IMG/VR virus record: IMGVR_UViG_3300025131_000006
Length of the DNA stretch: 64,000 nt
Direction: 5' to 3' (one strand)
Origin: a virus
Shown here: one piece after another, positions 4,054 through 60,691 of the stretch
How the letters are laid out: every line of letters begins with the position of its first letter
How positions within the stretch are numbered: position 1 is the stretch's first letter
Notes under the pieces: model-generated
The model's input: only the letters and a program-made list of their open reading frames with translations
What the model was told of the DNA's origin: nothing
Databases searched by the model: none
Made by a program: the position numbers and the translations under genes

Positions 4054-4769
4054 GCGGGGTGAGAGACTTGTTCAAGGTGGCTTTGCCTGTGAAGCTCGCC
4101 AGGAAAGAGATCAAGAGAGAGGTTAGAGGTCTCAATTTGGGACGTGGCCGCAGGAAGAAGGAGAAGAGAGCCACCAGGACGGAGATGATTCGCAGGACAC
4201 ACGAGGGTCGTATTCTGGTGCCAGATCGTCGAGATCGAGAGGCACGGATGGAGGCGGCTCGTGTAGCCCAAGCTTTCGCAGAGAAGCACGCCAGGTACTT
4301 CGGCAGTCGCCAATGCGATTGGCAGAGGATGATGGAGAATCCCGGTGCGGTGGGGTGCTTCTCTCGTGCTGCCGCATATGCGTCCGAGTTGACTTGTTCG
4401 GCTTCGGATTTTGTGGAGGCACAGTTTTGGTATTTTGATAAATACGTGGGCCAGGTTCCCGACATAAAGAATTTGGCGGCACCAGATGCTGTCTCCCGGT
4501 ATAGTATTTGGAAGGAGTCTAGAGAGTCGGGTGAGGCGCCGGATGCGACGGTTTATCCGGCAGTGGGAGGGAGGGTCGCAAAATTAACAGATGACGAAAT
4601 GCGGGGCTATGAGGAGTCTTCCTTGCGTCGAATGGTCTCTCGATGGGGTTCGGAAGATAAAGTGTGGGAGTTGTTTGGACAGGAGGACGATGTTTTCTCT
4701 TTGGCTTTTCGGGAGAGCCGGGGGTCTTGGCAGCGTATGTACGGAACAGGAGACCTTGAAAAAGTTTAG
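4050..4769 (+). CDS. Hypothetical protein (replication block)
   Basis: Translationally coupled ORF; its stop lies inside the dispersed palindrome. Confidence 0.7.
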   Translation: MSGVRDLFKVALPVKLARKEIKREVRGLNLGRGRRKKEKRATRTEMIRRTHEGRILVPDRRDREARMEAARVAQAFAEKHARYFGSRQCDWQRMMENPGAVGCFSRAAAYASELTCSASDFVEAQFWYFDKYVGQVPDIKNLAAPDAVSRYSIWKESRESGEAPDATVYPAVGGRVAKLTDDEMRGYEESSLRRMVSRWGSEDKVWELFGQEDDVFSLAFRESRGSWQRMYGTGDLEKV

Positions 4770-4778
4770 TCACTGAAC
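4764..4778. repeat. Dispersed palindrome copy 1 (GTTTAGTCACTGAAC)
   Basis: Matches RTTYAGYNRCTRAAY; contains the TAG stop of 4050..4769. Confidence 0.9.
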
Positions 4779-4888
4779 GCACAGGTGCTTCTCTTGCTGT
4801 GCTCTTGTGTTCTTCACATGTCGCTATATCCGTATTTTATTGTATATATAGAGCGACAGTACAACGTTCGAGAGTAGAGGTTGAGATC

Positions 4889-5119
4889 ATGATTAAAGTA
4901 TCGACATTGGCAATCAAAGGACACCAGGCATTGGTGATGACCCCGACAGGAAGATTGATTGTTTTGAAGTTCGACAAGCCCCTGCCGGATGGGTATGAAG
5001 TCAAGATGTTGGATGAGGAGCCTCCGGAGGCTGACGTGTGGCACGGAGGGGAAGACTTGGTTGTGCCTGTTTTTCCTGCATTTGAAGCGTCTGATATGCC
5101 GGACATGCCGAGCGTTTAA
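4889..5119 (+). CDS. Small hypothetical protein
   Basis: GAGGT RBS, downstream of a TATATA promoter box. Confidence 0.65.
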   Translation: MIKVSTLAIKGHQALVMTPTGRLIVLKFDKPLPDGYEVKMLDEEPPEADVWHGGEDLVVPVFPAFEASDMPDMPSV

Positions 5120-5221
5120 TAAAAAAATGTCGAGGTGTTGTCATCTGTGGGTATATGACAATAGGTCACATAGAAGATCGGATCATATGCACCACACGAT
5201 TCGCTGTGCGCGATAGGAGGG

Positions 5222-6607
5222 TTGATGGTAACACCGGGAGTTGCGGGTCCAGAGGCGTTTGAGAAATTTGCCTTTGGCGACGGTATGCAGAAAGACGTGC
5301 TGCGATTGATGGCACGAGAGCAGTTGTTTTCGGAGGCTTCGGTTCATTGGATTGAGCCGAAGTACTTCGGGACAGGGGCACAGAGATGGATGGCCAAGGC
5401 CCAAATCCGTTTCTTTGAAAGATACATGATGCCGCCAACAAAGAGCGAAGTGTTGGAGGTTTTGCGCAAGTCACAGGTGTTGGGCGAGGTAACCGATGTC
5501 TTGGTTTCGGACATCTCTCGCTTGACGGGGGAGATATACGACGAGCCGTTGTCGGGGTCTCGCGAGTTTACATTGGACTCCGTCAGGGGGTTTGCTCGCA
5601 AAAGAGCGTGGCAGTCGGCCATATTGGAGGCTCTGCCTTATTTGGAGATGGGAGATGCCGATCGGGTTGATCTGATCATGGAGCGAGCCAAGTCGTCCGT
5701 GTATGATTTGGAAGCGGGCGGGTATTGGCTGTTCGAGACTGTAGAGGAGAGAGCCCGGCGAAGGGCAATGGACGAGGAGACCGGGGGGGATGTGTTTCCT
5801 TTGGGGATACCTCCGCTAGACCTGGCTTTACGCCGGGGCGGCATTGGTCCTGGGGAAGTCGTTATGTGGATCGCGGAGAAAGGGGGCGGGAAATCAATTG
5901 CCTTGTGCCATACGGCTCGACACGCTGTCTTCTCCCATGGTCGCGTCGCGATATTTTCGTTCGAGATGGCCGAGGAGCAGATCGCAGATCGCTTGGATGC
6001 GGGATTCGGTGGCGTCAGCATGTGGAGTATGGTCGCCGAGCAAGAGAAAATGATGGAGAACTTGCGGTTTTTAACAGGCAGGTTCCCGCGCAGCGTCTTT
6101 ATTCGCCGTTACCCCACCAAGGGAGCAACCATATCGGACATAAAAAGATGCTTGGACTCTCTGCGGAGGCAGCACAGTTGGACGCCTCACGTTATCGTTT
6201 TGGACTATTCTTCGATCGTCCGTCCTTCTCGATCGCGAGAGAGAAAGAACGAGGAGCTTCAGGAAGTCGTCGAGGATTTTCGTGGATTGTGTGTTGAGGT
6301 GGGTGCTGCGGGCTACACAGCAGCGCAACTGAATCGGATGGGAGCAGCACGTCGTGTCGCAGATGGAACGCATGCAGCGGGTTCTTGGGACCAACTTGCT
6401 ACGGTCGATTACTCATATATTATCAATCAAACATTGGAGGAGCGGGAGCGAAACATGATTCGTATCTTGATAGAGAAAGCTCGCGATGGCCTCTCCAAGT
6501 TAGAGATTGGGCCTCTGGAGACTGAATGGGCCAAGATGAGATTTATCGCTCCCATCCACGCACCTCCGTGGGAGATCCGTGAAAAGTACGGCATTTACTT
6601 CAAGTAG
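5222..6607 (+). CDS. dnaB: DnaB-like replicative helicase
   Basis: AEKGGGKS Walker A, FSFEM, VLDY Walker B, AAQLNR motif. Confidence 0.9.
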   Translation: MMVTPGVAGPEAFEKFAFGDGMQKDVLRLMAREQLFSEASVHWIEPKYFGTGAQRWMAKAQIRFFERYMMPPTKSEVLEVLRKSQVLGEVTDVLVSDISRLTGEIYDEPLSGSREFTLDSVRGFARKRAWQSAILEALPYLEMGDADRVDLIMERAKSSVYDLEAGGYWLFETVEERARRRAMDEETGGDVFPLGIPPLDLALRRGGIGPGEVVMWIAEKGGGKSIALCHTARHAVFSHGRVAIFSFEMAEEQIADRLDAGFGGVSMWSMVAEQEKMMENLRFLTGRFPRSVFIRRYPTKGATISDIKRCLDSLRRQHSWTPHVIVLDYSSIVRPSRSRERKNEELQEVVEDFRGLCVEVGAAGYTAAQLNRMGAARRVADGTHAAGSWDQLATVDYSYIINQTLEERERNMIRILIEKARDGLSKLEIGPLETEWAKMRFIAPIHAPPWEIREKYGIYFK

Positions 6608-6622
6608 AGGCAGGCGACGAAC

Positions 6623-7765
6623 ATGTCTGATATTGGGAGTCTTCGGTTCGAAGATCACGAGATAGAAAGAGTTCGCCATGCTGCGAATGTGGTGGAGCTT
6701 GTGGGGTCTGTGGTTAAGTTGACTCGTGCGGGGTCTTCTTTCAAGGGTTGCTGTCCTTTCCACCAGGAGAAGACCCCATCGTTTTTTGTTGAACCCGAAA
6801 AGAAGGTGTATTACTGCTTTGGTTGCGGTGCGAGAGGAGATGCTATCACGTTCATGCAGGAGATGTTCTCCCTGTCTTTTGCGGATGCTATTCGCGAGCT
6901 TGCTCACCGGCACAGCATCTCTTTGGGGGATGGTGCGTTTAGGGACTTTACTGCCAAGGTGATGCGGGCTCTTCACCCACCAGCTACGACGTGGGCAGTG
7001 CCAGGCCGAAGTGATTGCCGAGATGAGGGGGTTCGGGTTGAATCTATCGCCAAGGTTATGTCGCACCACAGGATTGACGCTCCCGCAGGGATGGCTCGTT
7101 TGGGTCATCCGATGATTTGCGAGATCAACGATTACGTGGAGGGTCGCGGTTTTTCGGTGGAGGATTTGGCCACCAAGGGGTATGGCGGTTTTGTTTTTGG
7201 TCCGCACGGCGGGAGGCTTTTTATCCCGTGTGTGATGGACGGTGACTTGGTTTTCTGGCAGACACGTTCGATTGTCGATCGCCAGGATATGTACGGAAGG
7301 GTTCCACCAAAGTACCTGAGTGCGCCGGATGTGACGTCGGGGATATGTATCTATAATTTGGATGTGGCCAAGAAGTTTCCGCTTGTTCATGTGGTGGAGG
7401 GTGCGTTTGACGCGGAGACTGTAGGGGATGACGCCATATCGATGTTTGGGTGTCGAGTCACGGCGGCACAGGCTCGCGTATTGGCTTTGCGAGGGTTTCG
7501 AGAGTTAAACTTGTGCTTTGACCCCGATGCTTGGAAAAAAGAACACAAGGGCAGTATCGACCGGGAGCCTCCTGTGTTGGCGGCAGGTCGGGCTATTTTG
7601 GAAGAGGGTATGGCCTTGCGTGTTTCTATCTTGGAAGGGAGAGACCCCAACGAGATGGGGAGAGATGCAGTGCGAGAGGTATTGGGACGTTCTAAGTCTG
7701 TTGCAGATGTGGTATTTTTAGAGAGTCTTGTTGCGCGTGTCGGGGGTATGTTGTCTTCGTCTTAG
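6623..7765 (+). CDS. dnaG: DNA primase (CHC2 zinc finger + TOPRIM)
   Basis: CPFHQEKTPSF...CFGC zinc finger; VVEGAFD and CFDPD TOPRIM motifs. Confidence 0.92.
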   Translation: MSDIGSLRFEDHEIERVRHAANVVELVGSVVKLTRAGSSFKGCCPFHQEKTPSFFVEPEKKVYYCFGCGARGDAITFMQEMFSLSFADAIRELAHRHSISLGDGAFRDFTAKVMRALHPPATTWAVPGRSDCRDEGVRVESIAKVMSHHRIDAPAGMARLGHPMICEINDYVEGRGFSVEDLATKGYGGFVFGPHGGRLFIPCVMDGDLVFWQTRSIVDRQDMYGRVPPKYLSAPDVTSGICIYNLDVAKKFPLVHVVEGAFDAETVGDDAISMFGCRVTAAQARVLALRGFRELNLCFDPDAWKKEHKGSIDREPPVLAAGRAILEEGMALRVSILEGRDPNEMGRDAVREVLGRSKSVADVVFLESLVARVGGMLSSS

Positions 7766-8296: not shown

Positions 8297-8311
8297 GTTC
8301 AGTGACTGAAC
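8297..8311. repeat. Dispersed palindrome copy 2 (GTTCAGTGACTGAAC)
   Basis: Just after the stop of 7785..8294. Confidence 0.9.
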
Positions 8312-8454: not shown

Positions 8455-9060
8455 ATGCCAAGAACAAAGACGCCGCACCTCGAAAGTCACATTTACGGTG
8501 TTCAAAAGATGGGAGCCAGGGAAGGTATGGATATTGAACGCATGAGAGTTCTGGGGTATTCGGTTCATCCCGGTGCCATTATGCAGCTTCACAACAAAGG
8601 AAAGCCGTGGAGGATTTACTTGACTTGCACGACGGGTGGGTCAAATAAGTTTTGGGAGGCGTGGTGGGAGGGAGTCGGGTTTACGCCGAAGAGTCGGTAT
8701 GGAGCCATCGGAACGAATGGTCGGACTTCGGAAAGAGCGGCTCTTTGGTGTGCCCGAAAGGCTCAAGAGAAAGCAACGAGTGTACGGTCACAGTACGTGA
8801 GACCGGAAGGAAGCCTCTCTTCTAGGGGTGCTATCAAGTGGCTAGAAGACCATTTGGACCCGTTAGGTGCGATGAGGTTATCCACGCCGGGATCGACAAC
8901 TCCGGAAGCCCCTCCAACGGAGACCGATACGACCGCTGAGACTAAGACCGCACCGCGACGAAAGACTCGGCGTAAAAAATCCCCTCGCCCCAAGGTGAAG
9001 TCAAAGCCTAAGAGCTTGTCTGAAATCGCCCAAGCGAGAAGAAAAAGCAGCGATTGGTAG
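8455..9060 (+). CDS. WGR-domain-like protein with C-terminal RRKSSDW tag
   Basis: YLTCTTGGSNKFWEA...RYGAIGTNG matches the WGR pattern; basic linker; ends LSEIAQARRKSSDW*. Confidence 0.7.
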   Translation: MPRTKTPHLESHIYGVQKMGAREGMDIERMRVLGYSVHPGAIMQLHNKGKPWRIYLTCTTGGSNKFWEAWWEGVGFTPKSRYGAIGTNGRTSERAALWCARKAQEKATSVRSQYVRPEGSLSSRGAIKWLEDHLDPLGAMRLSTPGSTTPEAPPTETDTTAETKTAPRRKTRRKKSPRPKVKSKPKSLSEIAQARRKSSDW

Positions 9061-10953: not shown

Positions 10954-11041
10954 TCTCCGTACTCCCTGCCCCCAAGTTTTCTTGGGGGTTTCCCATGTGC
11001 GGTTTCTTGGCTAGCTCTTGGCTCATGCGTAATGCATAGGA

Positions 11042-11056
11042 ATTTAGTCACTAAAC
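11042..11056. repeat. Dispersed palindrome copy 3 (ATTTAGTCACTAAAC)
   Basis: Intergenic between AAA and VWA genes. Confidence 0.85.
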
Positions 11057-11149
11057 CGCACATTTTCTGTGTCTGCTTTGCTCTCTTGTTTGTATATATA
11101 TAGGCATGAGTCAGAACAGGTAAGCCAAGAGCAACGGAGAAAAGAGAAA

Positions 11150-13090: not shown

Positions 13091-13255
13091 ACGGCATTGT
13101 CGATATACAGGGGGTGCACCTCAAAATAGATTGACAAGAAAGACATTACAGAGTGAATGTATGCGGAGCCCGGAAGACCGGGCTCCGTTTTTGTGCATCG
13201 TGACAAAATTGGTCACGAAAGCCACACAGATCAAAACAAAACAGAGGTAACGGGC

Positions 13256-13918
13256 ATGAACAGAAATTGGCACTACAATGATTTCCTGAAAAATTACGAA
13301 GGCTTTCTGCACAACCAGGCGAAGATTCTCGCGACTTGCCCCGGTGTCGATCTCGATGATGCCGCACAAGATGTTAGGATGTTTGCGTGGGAGGCCGTGA
13401 CACACGAACGTTTCAACAGTTGGTCTGAGTCTCCGTCGGCTTGGATCTTTCAGCGGGTCGTGTGGGGTGTGCAGCGAAAGATCTCTGTGTATCGTCGATC
13501 CTATCTGGAGGTGCCTGCGAGTGCTTCACTGCAAAATAGGTGGTGTGTTTCTGAGTTCGGGTCGTGGAGGGTGCGGTGGTTGGACAATTTGGGGGAGTCG
13601 GATGTTACTTATTCGGATGTGTTCAGGGGTCGATTCTATGACATAGAGAATCAAGTGGAGGCTCGTATCGCGTTGGAGCGGATTGAGAGATTCGCTGAGA
13701 CATCGCTTCCGGAAGGGCAGCGGAGACCTATTTTGGCAGTGTTGCAACGCACGGAGGAGGTCATTGAACACTCGCAGAAGTCGAAAGGGGGTCGTGCGGG
13801 TGTGGCGACTTACGAGGTTGCGTCGGGTCCAAACCTGTCCACTTTCTTGAACCACCCGTGGGCCGCAAAAATGATGGAGCGGGCACAGAACAAAATCATC
13901 GAAGAGTTCAGTGACTAA
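13256..13918 (+). CDS. Sigma-70/ECF-like RNA polymerase sigma factor
   Basis: DLDDAAQDVRMFAWEA...F...SAWIFQRV resembles sigma region 2; GAGGT RBS. Confidence 0.6.
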   Translation: MNRNWHYNDFLKNYEGFLHNQAKILATCPGVDLDDAAQDVRMFAWEAVTHERFNSWSESPSAWIFQRVVWGVQRKISVYRRSYLEVPASASLQNRWCVSEFGSWRVRWLDNLGESDVTYSDVFRGRFYDIENQVEARIALERIERFAETSLPEGQRRPILAVLQRTEEVIEHSQKSKGGRAGVATYEVASGPNLSTFLNHPWAAKMMERAQNKIIEEFSD

Positions 13919-13920
13919 AC
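13906..13920. repeat. Dispersed palindrome copy 4 (GTTCAGTGACTAAAC)
   Basis: Contains the TAA stop of the sigma-like gene. Confidence 0.9.
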
Positions 13921-18189: not shown

Positions 18190-18204
18190 GTTCAGTTACT
18201 AAAC
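18190..18204. repeat. Dispersed palindrome copy 5 (GTTCAGTTACTAAAC)
   Basis: Immediately after the recA stop. Confidence 0.9.
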
Positions 18205-18226
18205 TTTTACCAGGAGCCGATACCTG

Positions 18227-21200
18227 ATGAGCAACCGAGTTCTCGTTTTTTCCGACTTGCAAGCACACACGCATCATGCGTACGCAAGGTCATTGCCGAA
18301 TGGCCGGAATACCCGACTCAAGGCAGCGACGGACTGCTTGAAGTATATCATCGACTTTGCAAGGGAGAACCGGATTCGGGATGTGGTCTTCTGCGGGGAT
18401 CTCTTCGAGACCAAGAATCGAATCCCGATGGTTGTTCTCCAAGAAGTGTGCGAATTGATCGTTGATTCGGTGGTTCACGGGTTGCGTTGGTTTATGATCC
18501 CAGGGAACCATGACTATGCAGTGCGTAACGGAGAGGTCCACGCCTTGGCGTTATTGCGTGGGCACGAGGACATTTACATTTTTGATGAGGATTGGTCGCG
18601 TGTTCCATTTCATAACTTTGGGGCATCCTTGGACAGTTCCATGTCCGCACGAGGGGGCGTGCCGACCTTGATCCACACGGTCAAATATGCAGAGAAATTA
18701 CCAGTAGAGGTGTTCGATGTGGAGCCGGACGAGGGCTCTCTGCGGGTATTGTTGGCTCATGGTTATGTGGAGGGCATGTGCGACTTCCCCCACGACTTCC
18801 CGGAAGACGAGATGGCCCAAGACGGGGAGTGGATACGAAGAGCGTGGCTCCGAGGCTTCGACGCGGCTCTGGTGGGTCACTACCACAAGCCAATGGTTGA
18901 GAACATTCACGGGTGCCAGGTTATTGTTCCGGGTTGCCCGTATCAAGAGAAGTCCGACGCTATGGGCCAAGAGCGAGGGTTCTTTGTTTGGGACTTGGAC
19001 AGTCGGGAGGCAACGAAGCATGTGATCCCGGAGAGCGTGGCACCGAGATTTGTGAAAGTGTCCATTGGGGCCGATGGTGTTGTGGAAGAGGAGGTCGCGT
19101 CCAACAGCATTGTATTATTGGAGCCTGCGGTAAGAGGGGTGCCTGCGGATGTGATTAAGCAAGCTCGTCAGAGCCTGATGGCTTCGGGTGCCTCGTACGT
19201 AGAGCCCCTGACGTTGCCACGCACTCCGGTCGTCCGGGTGGAGCGTCCAGCGATCGAGGTCGGCACCCGAAGTACACCGTTGAGTGTGTTAAAGCGTGTC
19301 CTTCGTTCGGATGCTATCGACCTGCGGGGGTGTTCTCTGCGTGAGTTGGAGCGAAAGGCTTCGGCTATTATCGCGGAGCATGGGCTCTTGCGAAAAGGGG
19401 CAAAGGGTGGATCTCCTGTGGTGGAGATGTATTTGAGTGCGCGAGATGCGTTTGCATTCGGTCGGGTTGATGTGGAGTTGACCGACCAGGGCTTGCTTGG
19501 AGTGGGGGGTGTCAACATGGAGACTTCTCAGGCGAGCAGCAATGGTGCGGGGAAGTCCACGCTTCCGGATGTGGTGTCGTTAGTCTTGTTTGGGAAGTCT
19601 CTGCGAAATGTGCGGGCAGATGAAACGATCCGCCGGGGAGCACGATCGTATCGAGGCATGATTCGGTTTGCGACATCCGATGGCAAGCGATACGAGATCT
19701 TTCGTTGCAGAAAAGACAAAGAGTTCGGGGGCGGGCTGTTCTTCCGGAAGGGATGGGGTGAGTACGACTTGGAGGAATTTGAACTTCCAGGAAAAGACGT
19801 CGATATGCGCGGAGGAGAGGGGAAGGAGACGCAGGATCATATCTCAGCGTCGCTCAGTATGGGGTTCGGGTTGTTCCGTGCCTTAGTTCTGTTGGGAGAA
19901 GGTGGAGACTTTCGGTTTGCAGCGTTGGGAGATTCGGCAAAAAAAGATGTCTTGTCAGATATTCTGGGGGTGTCGTTCTATGATGATCTCGCCAAAAACG
20001 CTCGGTCTCTTGCGAACACTCTGAGCGACGAGCAGGACAAATTGGAAGCAGAAGCAGGAGTACTGCTTTCGGAGAAGGAGGACGCAAACCGCGAGTGGCA
20101 TGTCGTGCAAGAGTCATTGGTGCGTTGGGAGAGAAAGCACCTGTATGAGATCCAAGGTGCCGAGGAGACTTTGGTTGCCGCACAAAAGGTTTTGCGACTC
20201 GCAGACGAAAAAATCATTGCACCGGCAGCGGGAAGTTCAGTGACTGAACTGAAAGATACGCGGGTTCGTGTTCTGGAATTCCGGGAATTGCTCGAACAAG
20301 CCAGAGAGGACCATGCAGGTCTCTTGGAGGAAGCGAACGAGAGTGCTCTTGCTTCTCAATCCAAGGTTGTCGGCCTGTTGTCGGATGTTCGATCGGTCGA
20401 GGCCCAATTGAAAGATCGGCGTGACTTGATCGCTCGTGGGAGGTGCGGAGAGTGCGGGCAAATCGTGACGGAAGATGTCTGCGAAGGCAAACTCTCCGAG
20501 TTAGAGGGACGCTTGGCAGAGTTGCAGGAAGATCTCCATGTTGCCAAAGGTCGAAAGTCCAGTTTGTCCGCGATCTACAACGATAGGCTTGTCTCCAGCA
20601 CAGGGGATACCTCAGAATTGGAAGAGACCTTGGGAGGGTTTCGGGCGAGAGTCGAGGAATTGGAGGCCGACGGTTTGTTGATCGCACAGGCGAAAGACCG
20701 GCGTGCTCAAGCTGCTCGCTTGCACGGGATACGCAGAGATGAGGTCGAGCGTTTGAAAGCCGAGGCGAATCCACACACAGGAGAGAGCGAAAGGCTCGTA
20801 GGGAGATCGGCCCGGTTGGTGACCGAGCGGGACATAAAGTTGCGAGAGCAGGCGTCGAAGCACTTGGACATGCTGCACTACAAAGTCCTCGCGGATGCGT
20901 TCGGACCCAAAGGGGCTCGATCAATGCTGTTTGACGAACTGATGCCGCAGTTGAACGATCGTTTGGAGTTATACTCCGACCTTTTTTGCGGGGGGTATAT
21001 TCGAATATCGGTGCAGTCGCAGTCTGAAACTGCCAGGGGAAAGGTGCAAGAGAAGATTGGGCTTGTGGTGGACTTCCCATCCGGTTCGTGTTCTTATGGC
21101 TCATGCAGTGCAGGAGAGAAGAGGCGAGTGGATTTGCCTGTTCTGTTTGCTCTCCAAGACGTCGCTGCTGCTTACGGTGTGGGGTTGGGCTTCTGCTTTT

Positions 21201-24418: not shown

Positions 24419-24433
24419 GTTCAGTGACTGAAC
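24419..24433. repeat. Dispersed palindrome copy 7 (GTTCAGTGACTGAAC)
   Basis: Just after the terL stop. Confidence 0.9.
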
Positions 24434-28219: not shown

Positions 28220-28234
28220 GTTCAGTGACTGAAC
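28220..28234. repeat. Dispersed palindrome copy 8 (GTTCAGTGACTGAAC)
   Basis: Between convergent genes. Confidence 0.9.
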
Positions 28235-30424: not shown

Positions 30425-30703
30425 ATGCCGCTGTATTTGAATGGGAAAGAAGTTTCTGGACACGCTCTTGACGTTGAGGGGTTTGAGCCAGGGGTAAACG
30501 ATCCTGCTGAGTTGCACTTGGTGGATGGGTTCAAAGACAAGGATCTCGTCTATGTCGAGTCTCTGGATCGTCTCTTTCGGTACGAGGACACATCGACGGC
30601 ATCGGATGACGGAGGTGGTGTCCTCGAAGAGGAGGAGGAAATGAGCGAACTCGAAAGACTTCGTCTCCGTGTTGCAGAGCTTGAGTCCGGTGATAAAGTT
30701 TAG
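30425..30703 (+). CDS. Small hypothetical (possibly virion) protein
   Basis: ORF; stop lies inside the palindrome. Confidence 0.6.
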   Translation: MPLYLNGKEVSGHALDVEGFEPGVNDPAELHLVDGFKDKDLVYVESLDRLFRYEDTSTASDDGGGVLEEEEEMSELERLRLRVAELESGDKV

Positions 30704-30712
30704 CGACTGAAC
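30698..30712. repeat. Dispersed palindrome copy 9 (GTTTAGCGACTGAAC)
   Basis: Contains a TAG stop. Confidence 0.85.
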
Positions 30713-31418: not shown

Positions 31419-32189
31419 CTAGGGGTTTTGGCGGGCTCGATAGACGATGTGGGTGATAGAGACAGACATCTCTATAGTGGCACTGTCGGTGGTGGCTTTG
31501 ATAGCATCGCCAGGGTTGATGAGGAAGTGGTCTGTCAGGGTGGCGTCATCAGTCGTGTTGTTGAGGGGGATAACGCGCTGCTCGCTTCCGTCTCGCCTCA
31601 CGATATAGATGCCGCTTGTTGCGCCGCGAGCACCAGGCTCGACGCCTCCGTGATTCCGGAAGTGTATAGAGGTGACGGTGACAGGGTAGTTGAATGACCA
31701 ATATCCACCTCTTGTGGGGATAGTGGGAGGAGCGGCAGATCCAGGGTCTCCTTGGATGTCTTGATCGGGGGTTCCGCCAAGGAAGTCGTTTCCAGCCGCG
31801 ATGCGTTGTGTGTCGGTGCGTCCGGTCATCGATGCAGGCAAGGGCTGATTTCTCTGGTTGACCAGCTTGCCCTCTTGGCGCCGGATGCCAGCCCCTTCTT
31901 TAAATAACGTCAGGGTCATAGCCTTGGACTTTCGACCGTCCGATGGATTTGTGACTATGACGGGCTTGTCGCCGACGCCCATTGTGTTGGTCAAGACGAT
32001 CTTGAGTTCGTTGGCGGAGTTGAAGGTTGTTGTGAGCGGTGCGATACCGTCCACGGTCACAGTGCTGCCAGACTCAAAGTTTTCGCCTTGCACCAATATG
32101 GTTGCCGAGGTGAGTTGGGGAGCGGTGGGGTGCCGCAGGCTGTGGATAATAGGGAAAACAGGTCTACTCATGATCGATGTCCTCGGCAT
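31419..32189 (-). CDS. IPT/TIG (Ig-like) domain protein
   Basis: ILVQGENFESGSTVTVDG...VIVTNPSDG. Confidence 0.7.
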   Translation of the reverse strand: MPRTSIMSRPVFPIIHSLRHPTAPQLTSATILVQGENFESGSTVTVDGIAPLTTTFNSANELKIVLTNTMGVGDKPVIVTNPSDGRKSKAMTLTLFKEGAGIRRQEGKLVNQRNQPLPASMTGRTDTQRIAAGNDFLGGTPDQDIQGDPGSAAPPTIPTRGGYWSFNYPVTVTSIHFRNHGGVEPGARGATSGIYIVRRDGSEQRVIPLNNTTDDATLTDHFLINPGDAIKATTDSATIEMSVSITHIVYRARQNP

Positions 32190-32859
32190 CTATGATTTCG
32201 GAAGTTCTGCCCGAAAAGTCGGAGAGGTCAAGCTCTCCGGCTTCGTCTGTCAGGGGTTGCAACTCAGGGGTTGGCTCATTCACCTCAGTGGGAATCAGGC
32301 TTAAGGTGTCTGCTGTGATGGGCGGCAGGCTGTGGTAGTTTTTGTCTGTGGGCATCATGTCCATGAGTTCTTCTGCGGGAACCCCCATGCGTTGACTTAG
32401 CACATCAAAGGTCATGGCGTCCAATGCAGCGACGTTGAATTCAGCACTCATGAAGACAGACGGACCTCCACCGAGAGAGTGTTTGTGATCGTATTGCTTG
32501 GGTTCGACGTGCAGCATTCCACGATCGCTCAGGAAGCTGGCCTCGTCTTTGTTGATTTGTAGCATCAGCTTCATGGCACGTGCTTTGTCGGATGGAGTAT
32601 GGGAGGTCCGGTACATCGACCAGGTCTCTTCGCGGAGAGCCCTGAACCGGGACATTGCGATGGCGACATAGTCTTCGTTTTGGATCGCGGATATGGCGGT
32701 TTTGGCCTCTTCAGCGAACTCCGTCAGGTATCCACGCACTGTTGATACGTTGAGGCCCATGATCATCGCGATCTCGGCTTCTGATATGCCGCGTACGCTC
32801 ATGGCAAAGGCTTGTCTTTTTCTTTCTTCGGATTCCATGGACATAGGTTTTCTCCGCAA
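32164..32859 (-). CDS. Putative terminase small subunit / HTH protein
   Basis: N-terminal HTH (ISEAEIAMIMGLNVSTVRGYL) followed by a helical oligomerisation-like region. Confidence 0.55.
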   Translation of the reverse strand: MRRKPMSMESEERKRQAFAMSVRGISEAEIAMIMGLNVSTVRGYLTEFAEEAKTAISAIQNEDYVAIAMSRFRALREETWSMYRTSHTPSDKARAMKLMLQINKDEASFLSDRGMLHVEPKQYDHKHSLGGGPSVFMSAEFNVAALDAMTFDVLSQRMGVPAEELMDMMPTDKNYHSLPPITADTLSLIPTEVNEPTPELQPLTDEAGELDLSDFSGRTSEIIDAEDIDHE

Positions 32860-32934: not shown

Positions 32935-33031
32935 GTTCAGATAGGAAATCAGCGTGTATATATATACTGCGAACGAAGACAAGCGTCGTTGATGTTGTGT
33001 CAACACAAACAGTCCTGTGTCAGGAGCGGAT

Positions 33032-34114
33032 ATGTCGAAAAAGAAAGCCGAAGAGTCTGTGGCCCCGTCGGGGTTGATGACAGACGCCGATGTTTTGTAC
33101 CTCCCGAAAGTGGATGGTCAGTCCTTTACGCAAGCACAGATCCCGTGGGTTCGCATTGAGCAGCACCCGGACTTTCCCAATTCTCGCGAAAGCTTGGGTG
33201 ATGTCCGGGGGTTGGAGGCCGGGATTGACGAGTTGGGGTTAGAGAGCCCGATCGTCGTGTGGCGGCAAGTCGAGGAGGGAGAGCCCGATCGCTTCTTTCT
33301 GATCAGTGGGTTCCGACGTCACCACGCTCTGCAAAACCTCGCAGCGGAAGATCCTGTTGGTTTCAACAATGTGTTTCCGCGAATCCCTGTGCATATCTTC
33401 GAGGGAAAGGTGGACGATGCGATGTTCCACAACTTGAGCGAAAACTCGAATCGCTCTAACCCTAACATGGTCGAGTTTGGGTTGTACGTCGATCGCTTGA
33501 TCGCACGAGGGCACAGGCAGGCTGAGATCGCCGAGCGAGTGGGTCGATCCAAGGGATGGGTGAGCGGTTGCCGAAAGTTCGCGACCTCCAAAGAAGTCCA
33601 CCCGGACACACGGATGGCGATTCGAAACGGAGTGATCGATTACAATATGGGGTATCGTCTGTCGCGAAAGCCGCTCAAGGATCAGCAGGCTTTCATCAGC
33701 GAGCTTACGGCACTGATCAAGGAGTTCGGAGAGGACGCACCAGAGGTTCGCGAGAAGAAAAAGTCGGCCAAGGCTGCTGCGACTACTACGAAGCCGCGTG
33801 GTCGATTGGCATTGCGGCGTCAGTTGGCCTTGATCTCCGAAATGGACTTGTCGGAACACGACAGGGCCTTGGATACGCTGTGGGACGGGTTGGACAAGGA
33901 TGACCGATCCCTGCTGGCTCTGGTCATGGAAATGGTTCACTATTTTGGTGTGATCAAGGGACTCACGTACGCCGACGGTTTCGACATCGATTGGGAGAAG
34001 TCAAGACCTCCGTTTGTGATCGAACCGGATGCCTTGGACATCACGACTGTGGTGAGTGAGGATGGAGCGACGAGTACACCGTATGTTCCCCCGAAGGAGG
34101 CGAAAGAAGCCTAA
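33032..34114 (+). CDS. ParB/Spo0J-like protein
   Basis: NSR, GLESPIVV, LISGFRRH (ParB box II), SENSNR, HTH RQAEIAERVGRSKGWVS. Confidence 0.85.
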   Translation: MSKKKAEESVAPSGLMTDADVLYLPKVDGQSFTQAQIPWVRIEQHPDFPNSRESLGDVRGLEAGIDELGLESPIVVWRQVEEGEPDRFFLISGFRRHHALQNLAAEDPVGFNNVFPRIPVHIFEGKVDDAMFHNLSENSNRSNPNMVEFGLYVDRLIARGHRQAEIAERVGRSKGWVSGCRKFATSKEVHPDTRMAIRNGVIDYNMGYRLSRKPLKDQQAFISELTALIKEFGEDAPEVREKKKSAKAAATTTKPRGRLALRRQLALISEMDLSEHDRALDTLWDGLDKDDRSLLALVMEMVHYFGVIKGLTYADGFDIDWEKSRPPFVIEPDALDITTVVSEDGATSTPYVPPKEAKEA

Positions 34115-34506
34115 TGGCAGAGCAAGGCAAGGCTGTCGCAGCGGTTATCCCTGTGACAGATGCGTGGAATGCTGTCGTGTTGGAAGACGGAAACGTTTTA
34201 ATGCAGCACCGAATGGCATTTATCCAAGGCACCCCGGACTATGTGGATTTGAGTGACCCAAGTGAGCATGACCAACTTGTATTGGAGGAGCTTCAAAAGA
34301 TGGACTCCGAGCGAGTGTTGGTTCGATGTCTGTACTTGGGAGAGGATGGTTCGGTATCTTACGATGTTCACGGGGTCTCGCCTATGGGGATTCCGGTAGA
34401 TCCGTTCACGGCGTTGGGCTCAGCAGGACCAAGTGCGGGTCGGTATATCCGGCGAGAGCAGCGTAATTTTGAGACATCTCATGTCATGGTGCCAGATTCA
34501 ACGTAG
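34114..34506 (+). CDS. Hypothetical protein
   Basis: TAATG-coupled ORF. Confidence 0.6.
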   Translation: MAEQGKAVAAVIPVTDAWNAVVLEDGNVLMQHRMAFIQGTPDYVDLSDPSEHDQLVLEELQKMDSERVLVRCLYLGEDGSVSYDVHGVSPMGIPVDPFTALGSAGPSAGRYIRREQRNFETSHVMVPDST

Positions 34507-35334: not shown

Positions 35335-35349
35335 GTTCAGTCACTAAAC
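35335..35349. repeat. Dispersed palindrome copy 11 (GTTCAGTCACTAAAC)
   Basis: Intergenic. Confidence 0.9.
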
Positions 35350-36197: not shown

Positions 36198-39100
36198 GTC
36201 TGTCGAGTTTCTATACGAATTCGGGAAAAGCACAGACGATGACGGAGGCTCCTGTCAGGAGAGCTTCTATTGTTGCTCCAGGGTTGCCGGTTGTGTCGGG
36301 TGGCAGTAAGGGGCAACCCATTGTTAATGATGGACTCCGTTTAGTTGGAGGGTTGGATGTGTTGTCTACGAATTTGGGTATGGAGCCCGGATTCAAGGCT
36401 GCTAAGAGCCATGGAGCTTCGCAACAACTCAAGCGTCTCCCCGCAACAACAGACCTCACAGCGGCTCGCGGCCCGCGAGCACGCTTCTTTGACCCTCTTT
36501 CCTTGGTCTATGCTTCAGGGTATCGCGATCGTCGCTTCAGCTTGACCTATGACACGATACGCCGAACGGTGTATCAGTTGTCATTATTGGGCTCTATTAT
36601 CCTGACGCGGATCTACCAGGTTGCTTCGTTTGCACAGCCGTATCGCGAGAACCAACAGATTGGCTTCAAAATTGGCTACAAGGACGACACGTATATTCCG
36701 CGAGAAGAGCAGCGTCGCGAGATAGTCGAGCTGGAGAGGATGGTTATGGCGTGTGGGTTTGATCGGAACCCACACAACACGGAGCCTCGCGATGACTTTG
36801 AGACATTCTTGAAGAAAATCACCCGCGACTCTTTGCAGTTTGATCAGATGTGTGCCGTTAAAGGCACTTGGGTTGAGCTTGCTGATGGTACAGGAGTTCC
36901 CGTTGAGTGTATTGAATCTGGAATGGTGGTGCGCTCTCACAATGGGGTGGAGCGAGAAGTTATCCATCCCACCTCACGGCTCTATTCAGGTGAGATGGTT
37001 GAGATTCAGGTGCGAGGACAACGGTTAAATGTGACCACAGGCCATCCTTTGTTGGTGGCAAAGAGGTCTTCGGTTGATGGAAACGCGGTGGCTTTCAAAG
37101 AGCCTGAGTGGATCGCCGCTGGCGAAGTGACAGATCGGGATTACGCACTCTACCCAAGACCGCTCTTGGGCAGAGAAGATATATCCTTGGATGTATTCGC
37201 CCAAGAGCCAAGGAAATTCCCTGTTGGCCCAATGGATCGTTTAGTGGAGTTGGCTGATTGTCATCCAAAAACGGCCAGAGATATTCTTTCGGGAACGTAC
37301 AAGAAGAATGGGCTACTTGTTGCCGAGGTGAAGGCACTTGCCAAAGAGCTTGGTGTCTCTATGGAGTACAAGAGAACTTGGCAACCTAAGACGGAATTGA
37401 CGACTGCTTGGGGAAGGTTTCTTGGGTTGTATTGTGCTGAAGGGCATGTGCAGGGTACATCGGTACGTTTGACATTCCATGAAGACGAAGCGGGTCTCGT
37501 TGAATTCGTCCGAAGCTTTGGTTCACTGTATGGTATCGAAAGTTCAGTCACTGAATATCTTGACCGTGCAGGAGTAACGGTTATTCTTTACTCTTCTGCA
37601 CTCGCTGAGTTTTTGAAAAATCATTGTGGTACAGGCTCCAGCGAAAAGAGAGTCCCATCATTCATACTTGGTGCTCAGAAGATGGTGAAGGAGCATTTTC
37701 TTTTGGGTTACTTGGAGGGTGATGGTCATCTCAAAAAGACAACAGCCCACTTCACCACGACCTCACGCAATTTGTTTACAGGTCTTCGCCTTCTCTTTGC
37801 GGATCAGGGCATCTATGTTGCAGAGGTGAAAGTACCCTCTGCAAGAGAACAGTGGGACGAACAATATGCTGGTTCGTTGTCAGGCCCGGCTTATCGAACG
37901 TTGGCTCGGAGTTTGGGTTTACCTGTGGAGGAACCCAGTAAAGAGCGCAAGTCGTACCATGTGGGAGAGAAGTTCTTTTATGTGAAGGTCTCTGCTGTTC
38001 GCAAGTACGAAGTGGAGAACTTGCGTGTCTTCAATATGGAGGTGGAGGAAGACCACAGCTACGTGGCAGAGGGAATTGTCAACCACAATTGTTTTGAGAT
38101 CGTGCCCGATTCGAAGGGCCGACCTGCTGAGTTCCACGCAGTAGACGCAGCAACGATCCGCTTGGCGGCAACGTACGACAACCACAAACCAGGTAAGGCT
38201 CCTCGCAAGTTTCATTCGGCAGAGTTCTCCGAAGATTGGAAGCAAGAGCGGGACTTGGGCGAAGACTTTGTGGTGCAAGATGACCAGATTCAGACGGTCC
38301 AGGTCATTCACGGGAAGATCGAAAACATCTTCACTGCCGGAGACATGGCGTTTGGGATTCGCAATCCGAGGTCGGATCTGTGGGTCAACGGATATGGTTT
38401 CTCCGAGACAGAGATGTGCTTGAGCACGGTTTTGCGAATGCTGTGGTCCGAAGAGTATAACGCTCGAAACTTCCGCCAGGGGAACATGAGCGGTGGCTTC
38501 TTGAACCTGAAAGGGGAGACGTACGATCCCGGAACCATCGAGACTTTTAAGCGGGTCATTCGTGCGAATGCATTGGGGTGGGAGAACGCACACCGCGTGC
38601 CTATCTTGCAGATCCCTGAAGGCATCGAGTTCGTCAATCTCCAGCGAGGCAATCGCGAGATGGAGTATGGTCGTTGGCAAGAGTATTTGCTGAAGATCAT
38701 CTCTGGCGTTTACCAAATCGACCCGGCTGAGATCAACTTTGATATTGGGAAAGCAAGCTCCCAAGGCCAGCCGATGTTCGAGAACAAGGCTGAATGGAAA
38801 ATCAAGTATTCGAAAGACAAGGGATTGCGACCGCTTTTGCGTTTCTTGGCTCGGCAGATTTCGAAGTACATCATTGAGCCCCTGAACCCCGATCTGTATT
38901 TCGATTTCGTGGGCTTGGACAAGATGAGCGAGCCGGAAAGGATCGATCTTTTGACGCGACAGGTTACGACGTATTTGACGATCAACGAAGGTCGCGAGAA
39001 AGAGGGTCGAGACCCGGTTGTCGGCGGCGACGTGATCTTGAATCCTGTTTATTTTCAAGCCAAGGCTCAAGCGGAGCAGGTTCCGATCAAGGCAGACAAT

Positions 39101-39337: not shown

Positions 39338-39380
39338 TGTGGGCTGATTTGTGATATAGAACAAATGGGTCCAGCGGATT

Positions 39381-39395
39381 GTTCAGTAGCTGAAC
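39381..39395. repeat. Dispersed palindrome copy 13 (GTTCAGTAGCTGAAC)
   Basis: Intergenic after portal. Confidence 0.85.
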
Positions 39396-39416
39396 TTTTT
39401 TTGCCGGGAGTGTGGC

Positions 39417-54389: not shown

Positions 54390-54404
54390 GTTCAGTAACT
54401 GAAC
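54390..54404. repeat. Dispersed palindrome copy 17 (GTTCAGTAACTGAAC)
   Basis: Intergenic after capsid gene. Confidence 0.9.
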
Positions 54405-56252: not shown

Positions 56253-56267
56253 GTTCAGTGACTAAAC
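56253..56267. repeat. Dispersed palindrome copy 18 (GTTCAGTGACTAAAC)
   Basis: Intergenic. Confidence 0.9.
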
Positions 56268-59180: not shown

Positions 59181-59253
59181 GGGTGTGTAGCTGAATGGGT
59201 TAGCGGGAGTCTTTAAAACTCTGTCCAAGTGGGTTCAATTCCCACCATGCCCG
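59181..59253 (+). tRNA. tRNA with UUA anticodon (ochre-suppressor type)
   Basis: GGGTGTG/CATGCCC acceptor; GGAGT-CTTTAAA-ACTCT; GTGGG-TTCAATT-CCCAC. Confidence 0.8.
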
Positions 59254-59725: not shown

Positions 59726-59735
59726 TTTTATTTTT

Positions 59736-60112: not shown

Positions 60113-60314
60113 GGTGCAGACCGGAGCAAAATGGGAAAAGACTCCGTGCCCTTGAACAATATGCCCTTATTGGGGGTGCGGTGGGGCCTTTTCGAGAGAG
60201 AGGGTTCTTCCGTGCACATGGCCATGGCAGCTTGGCGGGAAACCGAACAAGTGTCTCATATTGTGGGGTGTTCCTAGAAACCGAAACACTCACGTACCTT
60301 GAAAGAGGTGCACC
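60113..60314 (+). ncRNA. About 200-nt structured RNA
   Basis: Closed by GGTGCA/TGCACC; GAAA and GAGA hairpins; abuts the next tRNA-like gene. Confidence 0.45.
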
Positions 60315-60382
60315 GGGATCATAGATCGGGAGATCGCTCGCAGATACGGCGGGAGGTGCAGGTTCGACTCCTGCTGGTTCCA
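60315..60382 (+). tRNA. Atypical tRNA with Ala identity (G3.U70, A73), 4-nt D-loop and non-canonical anticodon loop
   Basis: GGGATCA/TGGTTCC-A; GATC-GGGA-GATC; CTCGC-AGATACG-GCGGG; GCAGG-TTCGACT-CCTGC. Confidence 0.65.
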
Positions 60383-60437
60383 CCCTTCTTGGTGCTTTTA
60401 CTCCTCCTGTTCCTGGGGTGATAACATCGAGAAGCTT

Positions 60438-60508
60438 GCTGCATTCGTCTAGTGGTAAGACGCCACCCTGTCACGGTGGAATCAGGAGTTCGATTCTCCT
60501 ATGTGGCG
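60438..60508 (+). tRNA. tRNA-Asp(GTC)
   Basis: CCACC-CTGTCAC-GGTGG; full cloverleaf. Confidence 0.9.
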
Positions 60509-60513
60509 TGATT

Positions 60514-60586
60514 GCCAACGTAGCTCACTTGGTAGAGCAGTTGATTCGTAATCAACAGGTACGCGGTTCGATCCCGCGCGTTGGCT
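60514..60586 (+). tRNA. tRNA-Thr(CGT)
   Basis: GTTGA-TTCGTAA-TCAAC; full cloverleaf. Confidence 0.92.
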
Positions 60587-60676
60587 CTTTTCTTTCTCGC
60601 ACTGTCGGGTCTGCTGGTGGTTTGTAGGTTATTTCGTCAGTGTCTTCTCGTCTGGTGTGGGAAAGAAATCTTTATG

Positions 60677-60691
60677 GTTCAGTCACTGAAC
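60677..60691. repeat. Dispersed palindrome copy 19 (GTTCAGTCACTGAAC)
   Basis: Just upstream of tRNA-Glu. Confidence 0.9.

What the first reader, a model, noticed from the sequence alone, without database searches (positions are those of the whole stretch)
4764..60691. Genome-wide lattice of a 15-bp palindrome (RTTYAGYNRCTRAAY), at least 19 copies about 3 kb apart
Seen: copies start at 4764, 8297, 11042, 13906, 18190, 20235, 24419, 28220, 30698, 32920, 35335, 37542, 39381, 45267, 46810, 49928, 54390, 56253 and 60677. Gaps are 1.5-5.9 kb (mean about 3.1 kb). The core TTYAGYNRCTRAA would be expected about 0.06 times in 64 kb at equal base frequencies. Most copies overlap or abut a stop codon or lie in short intergenic gaps, whatever the gene function (replication, head, tRNA). 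The three fully intragenic copies all read SS(V/A)TE. Variation at the degenerate positions does not preserve pairing between arms, which fits a dimeric protein binding dsDNA better than an RNA hairpin. Inference: even spacing across all modules is unlike an ordinary operator regulon. It suggests a genome-organising system, such as dispersed parS/matS-like sites (a ParB-like gene lies just downstream of copy 10) or roadblock sites analogous to mycobacteriophage L5 stoperators.
Basis: partly seen in the sequence, partly recalled or inferred. Interest (0 to 1): 0.88.

Follow-up and report, generated by a model that had tools for sequence, protein, structure and literature searches.

The report
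Evenly spaced palindrome lattice in phage
A large uncultured phage carries the same 15-base palindrome about every 3 kb along its whole chromosome, most likely as loading sites for its own ParB/KorB-type DNA clamp, which would be an unusual way for a virus to mark or control all of its DNA at once.

Summary
It occurs 34 times in the 104.6-kb virus record. Spacing is far more even than chance (CV 0.43 against about 0.9; P<2e-4). All 29 departures from GTTCAGTNACTGAAC are transitions, the two arms vary independently, and the RNA hairpin is weak. This points to a double-stranded DNA site for a dimeric protein.

The ORF at 33017-34114 is a real ParB/Noc/KorB-type protein (CTPase fold plus HTH) with no ParA. 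Nine relatives' loci carry this gene. Each has a palindrome of its own just upstream of it. In seven, that palindrome recurs elsewhere in the locus, in four of them at kb-scale spacing. Half-sites resemble the KorB and KorA operators of plasmid RK2.

Evidence against the ParB reading: an 89%-complete cousin has its own 29-site lattice but no detectable ParB. An unrelated 67% GC actinophage and a bacterial contig carry the identical 15-mer without one.

Verdict: a real protein-binding lattice, with the ParB-like clamp as reader at about 50%. The scan had already noted this lattice on adjacent windows of the same genome. I confirmed that each relative has its own version. It is a new variant of a known kind.

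The parts
4764..4778 (.). lattice site GTTTAGTCACTGAAC; overlaps the stop of ORF 4050-4769; 77 nt upstream of a TGTATATATA promoter-like box
8297..8311 (.). lattice site, perfect consensus, 2 nt after a stop codon, followed by a T-run
11042..11056 (.). lattice site, variant ATTTAGTCACTAAAC; 12 nt before the CobT gene; 49 nt upstream of TGTATATATA
13906..13920 (.). lattice site overlapping the stop of ORF 13157-13918
18190..18204 (.). lattice site directly after the recA stop; the cousin G004 also has a site at its recA stop
20235..20249 (.). intragenic lattice site in the Mre11-Rad50 fusion gene, read SSVTE
24419..24433 (.). lattice site 2 nt after the terminase large subunit stop; G004 has a site 49 nt after its TerL stop
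28220..28234 (.). lattice site 2 nt after a stop, in the convergent gap before the minus-strand RNR gene
30698..30712 (.). lattice site GTTTAGCGACTGAAC overlapping a stop codon
32920..32934 (.). lattice site, variant ATTTAGTCACTAAAC, in the divergent gap between the TerS-like HTH gene and the ParB-like gene; 35 nt upstream of TGTATATATA
35335..35349 (.). lattice site 6 nt after the stop of ORF 34627-35328
37542..37556 (.). intragenic lattice site inside the intein part of the portal gene, read SSVTE
39381..39395 (.). lattice site just after the portal gene; the position is conserved in relatives L135, L138 and L141
45267..45281 (.). lattice site 5 nt after a stop codon
46810..46824 (.). lattice site overlapping a stop codon
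49928..49942 (.). lattice site 11 nt before the stop of the 1010-aa ORF, read SSATE
54390..54404 (.). lattice site 52 nt after a stop, followed by a T-run
56253..56267 (.). lattice site 6 nt before the start of the 886-aa ORF
60677..60691 (.). lattice site inside the tRNA cluster, between tRNA-Thr and tRNA-Glu
33017..34114 (+). orphan ParB/Noc/KorB-type protein (P0001): CTPase-fold N-domain with GxRR and ENxxR boxes plus an HTH domain; the candidate reader of the lattice
34114..34506 (+). conserved partner ORF of about 125-130 aa whose start overlaps the ParB-like stop; present behind every ParB-like gene examined; fold unknown
32164..32859 (-). HTH protein transcribed divergently from the ParB-like gene; N-terminal HTH plus a helical core, small-terminase-like; an alternative candidate reader
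32955..32964 (+). promoter-like extended -10 box TGTATATATA; other perfect copies at 382, 4841 and 11091; three of the four have a lattice site 35-77 nt upstream

Best explanation
The 15-bp palindrome (A)GTTCAGTNACTGAAC(T) is a double-stranded DNA binding site for a symmetric protein dimer. It is kept at roughly 3-kb intervals along the whole phage chromosome. The most likely reader is the phage's own orphan ParB/KorB-type protein (33017-34114). The proposed mechanism is inferred by analogy with KorB of plasmid RK2 and with Noc. The dimer recognises the palindrome through its HTH domain. It binds CTP, closes into a clamp and slides away from the site. With a loading site every 3 kb, every base pair lies within about 1.5 kb of a site, which is the reach reported for KorB. 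The whole genome can therefore be occupied. Sites 35-77 nt upstream of the TGTATATATA promoter-like boxes, including the one before the ParB-like gene itself, would act as operators for repression or timing. The other sites would keep the chromosome coated or organised. Shown here: the lattice, its regularity, its symmetry, the ParB fold, and the link between ParB-like genes and lineage-specific palindromes. Inferred: binding, CTP dependence, sliding and the biological purpose.
For: Sites and statistics: 20 in the window and 34 in the record against 0.01 expected, with CV 0.43 and P<2e-4.

DNA rather than RNA: half-sites vary independently, all 29 changes are transitions, the central base is unbiased (G15 C14 A3 T2), the flanks are symmetric (A before, T after), and folding gives only -4.3 kcal/mol, or -1.1 for the cousin's 13-mer. 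Isolated half-sites are not enriched.

The protein: 676 homologues were found. In a 40-sequence alignment, 30 hit HTH_ParB, 27 hit ParB_N and 9 hit KorB. G98 and R101 are invariant; E142, N143 and R146 are conserved. The AF2 model has pLDDT 87, and its best PDB matches are ParB-CTPgammaS, Noc, Spo0J and KorB. No ParA was found.

Association: in all nine relatives' loci with a homologue, a lineage-specific palindrome lies within about 250 nt upstream of the gene. In seven it recurs elsewhere in the locus. L135 has GTTTATTCAGTAAAC x7 in 21 kb. L138 has GTTGAnnnnnTCAAC, 8 exact copies and one near copy in 20 kb. L274 has AARTTGCGCRACTY x4 at 2.6-3.6 kb. L141, L266 and L268 have TTAG..CTAA types clustered around the operon, and L267 has two adjacent copies upstream. 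L273 (2.1 kb) has one copy and L275 is ambiguous. Six distant TerL relatives have no repeated palindrome.

Half-sites resemble KorB OB TTTAGC(C/G)GCTAAA and KorA OA GTTTAGCTAAAC (PMC2680271). KorB-CTP slides up to 1.5 kb (PMC11790492). Three of the four perfect promoter-like boxes have a site 35-77 nt upstream.
Against: G004 shares the replication and terminase module (TerL 50% identical) and is rated 89% complete. It has 28 exact and 1 near copies of GTTAGGWCCTAAC. No ParB-like protein was found in it by protein search, two Pfam models, phmmer, a family profile or a motif regex.

The identical 15-mer occurs 44 times in an unrelated 67-68% GC actinophage. Its only ParB_N protein has no recognisable HTH. 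The 15-mer also occurs 7 times on a 32.6-kb bacterial MAG contig with no ParB-family hit.

The ParB-bearing loci all belong to one syntenic phage group, so any co-inherited gene, such as the divergent TerS-like HTH protein, would show the same association. In the actinophage's early region sites are only 150-600 bp apart, before nearly every small gene. That looks like ordinary operators, not a spacing lattice.

No binding or CTP data exist.
Confidence: 0.5

Rival explanations
1. The lattice is a protein-binding array, but its reader is not the ParB-like protein. It could be another phage protein not yet recognised, for example one from the replication/terminase module shared with G004, or the TerS-like HTH protein. 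It could also be a DNA-binding protein of the host, whose specificity differs between hosts.
For: G004 and G003 have lattices of the same style, with sites at orthologous places (after recA, after TerL, at the primase stop), but no detectable ParB. The identical 15-17-mer occurs in an unrelated actinophage and in a bacterial contig that share no detectable protein with this phage. A host factor would explain both the shared motif in unrelated elements and the different motifs in relatives with different GC content.
Against: No candidate was found. The shared unknown ORFs have no DNA-binding Pfam or PHROG hit. The truncated scan of bacterial genomes gave only single hits apart from one contig, so no host genome enriched in the motif turned up. 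The repeated motif is always the palindrome that sits directly upstream of the ParB-like gene, and sites cluster around that operon in L141, L266 and L268.
Confidence: 0.32
2. The motif is a host-determined self-marker read on DNA ends. It would be Chi-like, protecting against a host RecBCD/AddAB-type nuclease, with two half-sites in opposite orientation so that it works from either side.
For: The 7-8-nt half-site has the length I recall for Chi sequences. Even spacing, and copies forced into long genes, suit a protective signal needed everywhere. Host dependence would explain the same motif in unrelated phages. The phage is rich in recombination genes: RecA, Mre11-Rad50 and RusA.
Against: Isolated half-sites are not enriched. 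The two arms are always paired with exactly one base between them. No Chi that I know of is a 15-bp palindrome. In the actinophage's early region sites lie 150-600 bp apart before each gene. No host genome enriched in the half-site was found.
Confidence: 0.08
3. The motif works in RNA, as a short hairpin at cistron boundaries. It could be an intrinsic or factor-dependent terminator, an RNase processing site or a 3' stabiliser.
For: Most copies lie between a stop codon and the next ribosome-binding site. Nine of 26 intergenic copies are followed by a run of four or more T.
Against: The stem is weak (-4.3 kcal/mol; -1.1 for G004's motif). Eight C..A and six T..G combinations fit independent half-sites, so pairing is not preserved. 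The A-rich upstream and T-rich downstream flanks are symmetric. The central base shows no strand bias although all flanking genes are on one strand. Copies inside genes keep the sequence. G+C-rich actinophage copies have no T-run.
Confidence: 0.05
4. The copies are footprints of a mobile or recombinational process, such as targets or scars of a site-specific nuclease or recombinase, or recombination hotspots that shuffle modules. They would have no organising role.
For: In Cluster O mycobacteriophages, recombination between the 17-bp repeats appears to have made insertions and deletions (PMC4351075). One copy lies inside the portal intein.
Against: Scars would not be evenly spaced, with a minimum gap of 1.3 kb and P<2e-4. 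They would not change in concert to a new sequence in each lineage while keeping their positions. There is no flanking repeat structure beyond 17 bp.
Confidence: 0.03

Closest known systems
KorB and its OB operators on IncP-1 plasmid RK2 (with KorA and its OA operators)
   Same: KorB is a ParB-family CTPase with an HTH domain. It reads an odd-length palindrome with a free central base, TTTAGC(C/G)GCTAAA. KorA's OA is GTTTAGCTAAAC (PMC2680271). The sites are dispersed over the replicon, some beside promoters and some far from any (my memory: 12 OB sites on about 60 kb). The clamp slides up to 1.5 kb (PMC11790492). The degenerate motif as written (RTTYAGYNRCTRAAY) would accept OB's 13-bp core TTTAGCNGCTAAA. 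One observed left arm (30698, GTTTAGC) matches OB's arm. The cousins' motifs TTTAGAnTCTAAA and GTTAGGWCCTAAC differ from OB at one and two half-site positions. KorB is among the structural matches of the phage protein.
   Different: This is a phage, not a plasmid. It has about three times as many sites, at about 3 kb and evenly spaced, including inside genes. No ParA/IncC was found and no KorA homologue was seen. The partner is an unrelated protein of about 125 aa. Sequence similarity to KorB is weak (E 0.004-0.025). Binding has not been shown.
[quoted passage not shown]
   Same: Noc is an orphan ParB paralogue that reads a palindrome dispersed over the chromosome rather than clustered at the origin, and spreads with CTP (my memory: about 70 sites of 14 bp). 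Noc is the second-best structural match.
   Different: Noc's sites are roughly 50 kb apart, not 3 kb. Noc has a membrane-targeting N-terminal helix, whereas the phage family has Lys-rich disordered N-termini. Noc is a cell-division function of a host, not of a virus.
17-bp dyad repeats of Cluster O mycobacteriophages (Corndog), TGTTCGGNNNCCGAACA
   Same: There are 34 invariant palindromes in a 70-kb phage, both between and inside genes. The centre is free with no orientation bias. Most are not near promoters and the motif is absent from the host. The authors suggested a dimeric protein, reader unknown (PMC4351075). Both motifs are GTTC-N7-GAAC.
   Different: No even spacing was reported; Corndog's intergenic sites concentrate in one arm. 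The phage group, host and inner half-site are different. No ParB link was proposed there.
Stoperators of mycobacteriophage L5 and Cluster A (repressor gp71)
   Same: Dozens of copies of one short site lie in small intergenic gaps over the whole phage genome, read by one phage protein (my memory).
   Different: Stoperators are 13-bp asymmetric sites oriented with transcription, and they act in lysogeny. The sites here are symmetric and unoriented. No integrase or repressor was seen in the ORFs I scanned.
parS/ParABS centromeres, including the dispersed SopB sites of phage-plasmid N15
   Same: A ParB-family reader binds a palindromic site. N15 has four dispersed centromere palindromes (my memory).
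   Different: There is no ParA. There are tens of sites rather than a few. The sites are evenly spread rather than clustered near an origin.

Membership tests
ParB/KorB-type CTPase clamp with dispersed operators | Reader protein has the ParB N-terminal CTPase fold with GxRR and ENxxR boxes | tested here: met
   G98 and R101 are invariant; R100, E142, N143 and R146 are conserved in the family alignments. 27 of 40 family members hit ParB_N. The AF2 model's top matches are ParB-CTPgammaS, Noc and KorB.
ParB/KorB-type CTPase clamp with dispersed operators | Central HTH DNA-binding domain of ParB/KorB type | tested here: met
   KorB domain hit at residues 165-215, E 0.004, below Pfam's cut-off. 30 of 40 relatives hit HTH_ParB. 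The structural alignments span both domains.
ParB/KorB-type CTPase clamp with dispersed operators | The protein binds the palindrome specifically | not testable with these tools
   The evidence is indirect only. The repeated motif of each lineage is the palindrome just upstream of its ParB-like gene.
ParB/KorB-type CTPase clamp with dispersed operators | CTP binding, clamp closure and sliding from the site | not testable with these tools
   The motif residues are present. No biochemistry is available.
   G004 (89% complete, 29 sites) and the actinophage G001/G002 (44 sites) have no ParB protein with an HTH domain detectable by profile, Pfam or regex searches. Both records are incomplete, so this test is not final.
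ParABS partition system | ParA ATPase partner, with centromere sites clustered near the par operon or origin | tested here: not met
   No AAA_31/ParA hit in the 104.6-kb record, while the control genomes all gave hits. The sites are evenly dispersed.
L5-type stoperators | Asymmetric site with fixed orientation relative to transcription | tested here: not met
   The consensus is a perfect palindrome. The central base is G15, C14, A3, T2 although all flanking genes are on one strand.
Intrinsic terminator or structured RNA element | Stable stem, compensatory changes that keep pairing, and a U-tract on one side only | tested here: not met
   Folding gives -4.3 kcal/mol. Half-site changes are independent, with 8 C..A mismatches. 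The A and T flanks are symmetric.
Cluster O-type phage dyad-repeat arrays | More than 30 copies of one invariant-arm palindrome throughout a phage genome, between and within genes, unoriented and absent from the host | tested here: inconclusive
   Copy number, symmetry, location and lack of orientation are met. The host is unknown, so absence from the host could not be tested. The class has no defined mechanism.

The most novel reading that the evidence does not exclude
A group of large phages uses an orphan ParB-CTPase clamp, loaded at co-evolving palindromes about every 3 kb, to coat the whole viral chromosome. This would be a virus-encoded mark of self on DNA that times transcription and organises or shields the genome. 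Because an unrelated actinophage and a bacterial element carry exactly the same 15-17-bp code, such codes may be shared or copied between competing mobile elements, or set by a common host factor.
Probability: 0.25. Interest if true: 0.85.

Novelty: new variant of a known kind. Interest (0 to 1): 0.7.

Why it matters
Dispersed operator arrays read by ParB-family clamps are known from one plasmid (KorB on RK2) and one host chromosome (Noc). Phage palindrome arrays such as those of Cluster O have been described for over a decade with no reader assigned. This case links the two. A regular, genome-wide, co-evolving lattice in large uncultured phages is tied by synteny and site position to a well-folded ParB-type protein. 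That gives a directly testable candidate for how a phage can address its entire chromosome with one protein. The about 3-kb spacing also offers a natural measure of clamp reach. The identical motif in unrelated elements, and a lattice in a cousin without ParB, are unexplained. Either could overturn the simple model.

Tried and rejected
- **Close relatives among cultured phages.** DNA search of 'phages' with the portal-to-1220-aa ORF stretch (36194-43079) found nothing. TerL is at most 31% identical to any cultured phage, so no host could be inferred.
- **ParB-like homologue in IMG/VR by pattern.** None found.
- **ParB in G004/G003.** Protein search, ParB_N, KorB and HTH_ParB models, phmmer, the family profile and a GxRR..ENxxR regex were all negative. 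The HTH_ParB model also missed the phage's own protein, so that one test is uninformative. The regex hit was a PolA intein. A weak profile hit (g4_44370) lay in a low-complexity tail.
- **KorA model.** Only a generic HTH/sigma-r4 protein in G004.
- **Proteins shared between G0 and the actinophage or the MAG contig.** None by blastp or phmmer.
- **RHH proteins next to sites** in the actinophage and the MAG contig. They are unrelated to each other.
- **Unknown ORFs shared with G004.** No DNA-binding family in Pfam or PHROGs. The small conserved post-TerL ORFs look like a zinc ribbon and an acidic helical protein.
- **5mC-deamination explanation for the C-to-T changes.** No C5-methyltransferase in the record.
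- **ParB-activated thymine dioxygenases** (PMC13229309). Those ParBs lack a DNA-binding domain, and I found no dioxygenase hit in the neighbouring ORFs.
- **Partner protein fold.** pLDDT 56, not usable.
- **Complex prediction.** Not run: it cannot model DNA, and a ParB homodimer would pass by likeness to solved structures.

Full report
**1. The observation**

The pattern RTTYAGYNRCTRAAY has 20 exact matches in the window. Shuffles gave 0.01 expected. Allowing one mismatch in the 13-bp core adds nothing, so the family is sharply bounded.

The window is bases 7695-71694 of a 104,653-bp IMG/VR virus record rated 65% complete. The record holds 33 strict copies and one near copy. A protein of this genome also lies on a 160.7-kb contig elsewhere. 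Nearly all genes are on the + strand, and GC skew is strong.

**2. Anatomy of the sites**

The consensus is GTTCAGTNACTGAAC, and 13 of the 34 copies are perfect. All 29 departures are transitions. The central base is G15, C14, A3, T2, with no strand bias. Positions 4 and 12 combine as C..G 18, C..A 8, T..G 6 and T..A 2, which is what independent half-sites predict.

The flanks are symmetric: A-rich at -1 to -3 and T-rich at +1 to +3. Isolated half-sites are not enriched. As RNA the site folds at only -4.3 kcal/mol. These features fit a symmetric dimer on duplex DNA. They do not fit a hairpin, a promoter or an oriented signal.

**3. Placement**

By my gene calls, 26 copies lie between genes, often 0-6 nt after or overlapping a stop codon and 12-40 nt before the next start. 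Eight lie inside genes, mostly long ones. Seven of these eight sit in the same codon phase and read SS(V/A)T(E/K), six of them as SSVTE. With a central G the other two + strand frames contain TGA.

Spacing is strikingly even. The mean gap is 3065 bp, CV 0.43, minimum 1282 and maximum 6205. Nulls gave a CV of about 0.9 to 0.96, both for uniform placement and for random choice among gene boundaries (P<2e-4 for CV and minimum gap; P about 2-6e-4 for maximum gap).

**4. The candidate reader**

The ORF at 33017-34114 lies 82 nt downstream of site 32920. It has weak but specific similarity to Spo0J and KorB. An exhaustive HMMER search found 676 homologues. In a 40-member alignment, 30 hit HTH_ParB, 27 hit ParB_N and 9 hit KorB. 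The GxRR and ENxxR boxes are conserved.

An AF2 model has pLDDT 87. Its best PDB matches are ParB-CTPgammaS, Noc, Spo0J and KorB. No ParA is encoded in the record. The protein is therefore an orphan ParB of the KorB/Noc kind.

**5. Relatives that carry the ParB-like gene**

The contigs with the closest homologues keep this gene order: [TIG protein][HTH protein], then divergently [ParB-like][about 125-aa partner][two ORFs][portal]. Shorter contigs hold only the ParB-like gene and its partner.

Each has its own palindrome directly upstream of the ParB-like gene. In seven of the nine loci that palindrome recurs elsewhere in the locus:

| Locus | Motif | Copies |
|---|---|---|
| L135 | GTTTATTCAGTAAAC | 7 in 21 kb |
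| L138 | GTTGAnnnnnTCAAC | 8 exact + 1 near in 20 kb |
| L274 | AARTTGCGCRACTY | 4, gaps 2.6-3.6 kb, variants again by transitions |
| L141 | TTTAGCnnGCTAAA | 8, clustered |
| L266 | TATTAGTnnACTAATA | 4 in 3 kb |
| L268 | TATTAGnnnCTAATA | 4 in 16 kb |
| L267 | TTCAAACGTTTGAA | 2, both upstream |
| L273 (2.1 kb) | 7+1+7 palindrome | 1, upstream |
| L275 | ambiguous | - |

Some positions are conserved, such as the site after the portal gene and the site upstream of the ParB-like gene. The recognition helix differs among the homologues. Six distant TerL relatives show no repeated palindrome.

**6. Likeness to KorB**

KorB's operator is TTTAGC(C/G)GCTAAA and KorA's is GTTTAGCTAAAC (PMC2680271). 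Like the sites here, OB is an odd-length palindrome with a free centre and TTAG/CTAA-type arms. KorB is a CTP clamp that slides up to 1.5 kb to reach promoters (PMC11790492). That is half the lattice period here.

A promoter-like extended -10 box, TGTATATATA, occurs perfectly four times in the window. Three of those copies have a lattice site 35-77 nt upstream, including the one before the ParB-like gene.

**7. Evidence against the simple model**

- TerL relatives G003 and G004 (about 50% identity) have their own lattices. G003 has TTTAGAnTCTAAA. G004 has GTTAGGWCCTAAC, 28 exact and 1 near copies over 131 kb, CV 0.47, with sites after recA, after TerL and at the primase stop, as in this phage.
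- G004 shares only the replication, terminase and RNR module with this phage. No search found a ParB-like gene in its 144 kb. It is rated 89% complete, so the gene could lie in the missing part. A homologue, P0008, sits after the CobS-like AAA ATPase and CobT genes in another phage of this kind.
- A full scan of IMG/VR found the identical 15-mer 44 times in two overlapping contigs of a 67-68% GC siphovirus. Its portal is 37-38% identical to those of Arthrobacter phages. It has no DNA or protein similarity to this phage and no ParB with an HTH domain. In its structural arm nearly all copies (at least 8 of 9) have the same A...T flanks and about 3.2-kb spacing. In its early region the sites precede nearly every small gene.
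- A 32.6-kb contig of a bacterial MAG has seven copies, one pair next to an RHH gene, again with no ParB.

**8. Weighing the evidence**

I hold the lattice to be a protein-binding array on duplex DNA at about 0.85. The ParB-like clamp as its reader in this phage stands at about 0.5. An unidentified phage or host reader stands at about 0.3. Chi-like, RNA-level and recombination-scar readings are minor. They fail on pairing, symmetry, half-site enrichment or spacing.

**9. Relation to earlier notes of this scan**

An earlier follow-up on an adjacent window (e1-5644114) reported the lattice and stated that each relative has its own version. It named the Cluster O repeats as the closest known case. 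I confirmed the own-version claim independently and read that paper. New in this report are:

- the ParB-family assignment by fold;
- its link to lineage-specific palindromes across ten loci (this phage plus nine relatives);
- the KorB/KorA half-site likeness;
- the promoter-proximal subset of sites;
- the counter-examples: a cousin without ParB, and the same motif in unrelated elements.

Noticed in passing
L106-L109 (IMGVR_UViG_3300037193_000597 and _000179): An unrelated 67-68% GC actinophage (two contigs overlapping by 141 bp) carries 44 perfect copies of the same palindrome. They lie about every 0.3-0.6 kb before small early genes and about every 3 kb in the structural arm. Three copies surround a divergent regulatory gap next to a 96-aa RHH-like ORF.
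   Followed up: partly
L262-L263 (G005 contig C58, MAG contig CAZVXA010000058.1): A 32.6-kb, 46% GC bacterial contig rich in STAND NTPase, caspase and pentapeptide genes has seven copies of the same 15-mer, in two close pairs. One pair lies directly after a CopG-like RHH gene.
   Followed up: partly
window 59181-59253: ARAGORN calls a tRNA with anticodon TTA (it would read the UAA stop) inside the 8-gene tRNA cluster. ORFs are long under table 11, so it may be a suppressor rather than a sign of recoding.
   Followed up: no
window 382-391, 4841-4850, 11091-11100, 32955-32964: A strand-specific TGTATATATA box, like an extended -10 element, occurs far above chance (19 matches with up to 1 mismatch, counting overlaps and both strands, against 0.19 expected). 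It probably marks host-type promoters.
   Followed up: partly
window 36194-39337: The portal gene is interrupted by an intein with a LAGLIDADG endonuclease. Portals of relatives L135 and L141 also carry inteins, and G004's PolA has one.
   Followed up: no
window 426-1373, 8455-9060; L126 (G004 44370-44798); partner ORFs of L141, L266, L268: Many unrelated proteins end in ...R[RK]xxS[DE]W or ...K[GT]DW.
   Followed up: partly
window 13157-13918: By eye, this 253-aa ORF has an ECF-sigma region-2-like stretch (DLDDAAQDVRMFAWEA). It ends inside a lattice site. It may be a phage sigma factor.
   Followed up: no
L130-L131 (G004 131.5-143.9 kb): The cousin's lattice stops for the last 12.4 kb of the contig, which is filled by three giant genes (785, 1834 and 1163 aa). 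Unlike this phage, it almost never places sites inside genes.
   Followed up: no
window 9685-13090, 17302-21421, 21970-22533: The replication and recombination module includes a CobS-like AAA ATPase plus CobT, RecA, a fused Mre11-Rad50 and RusA. This suggests recombination-dependent replication.
   Followed up: no
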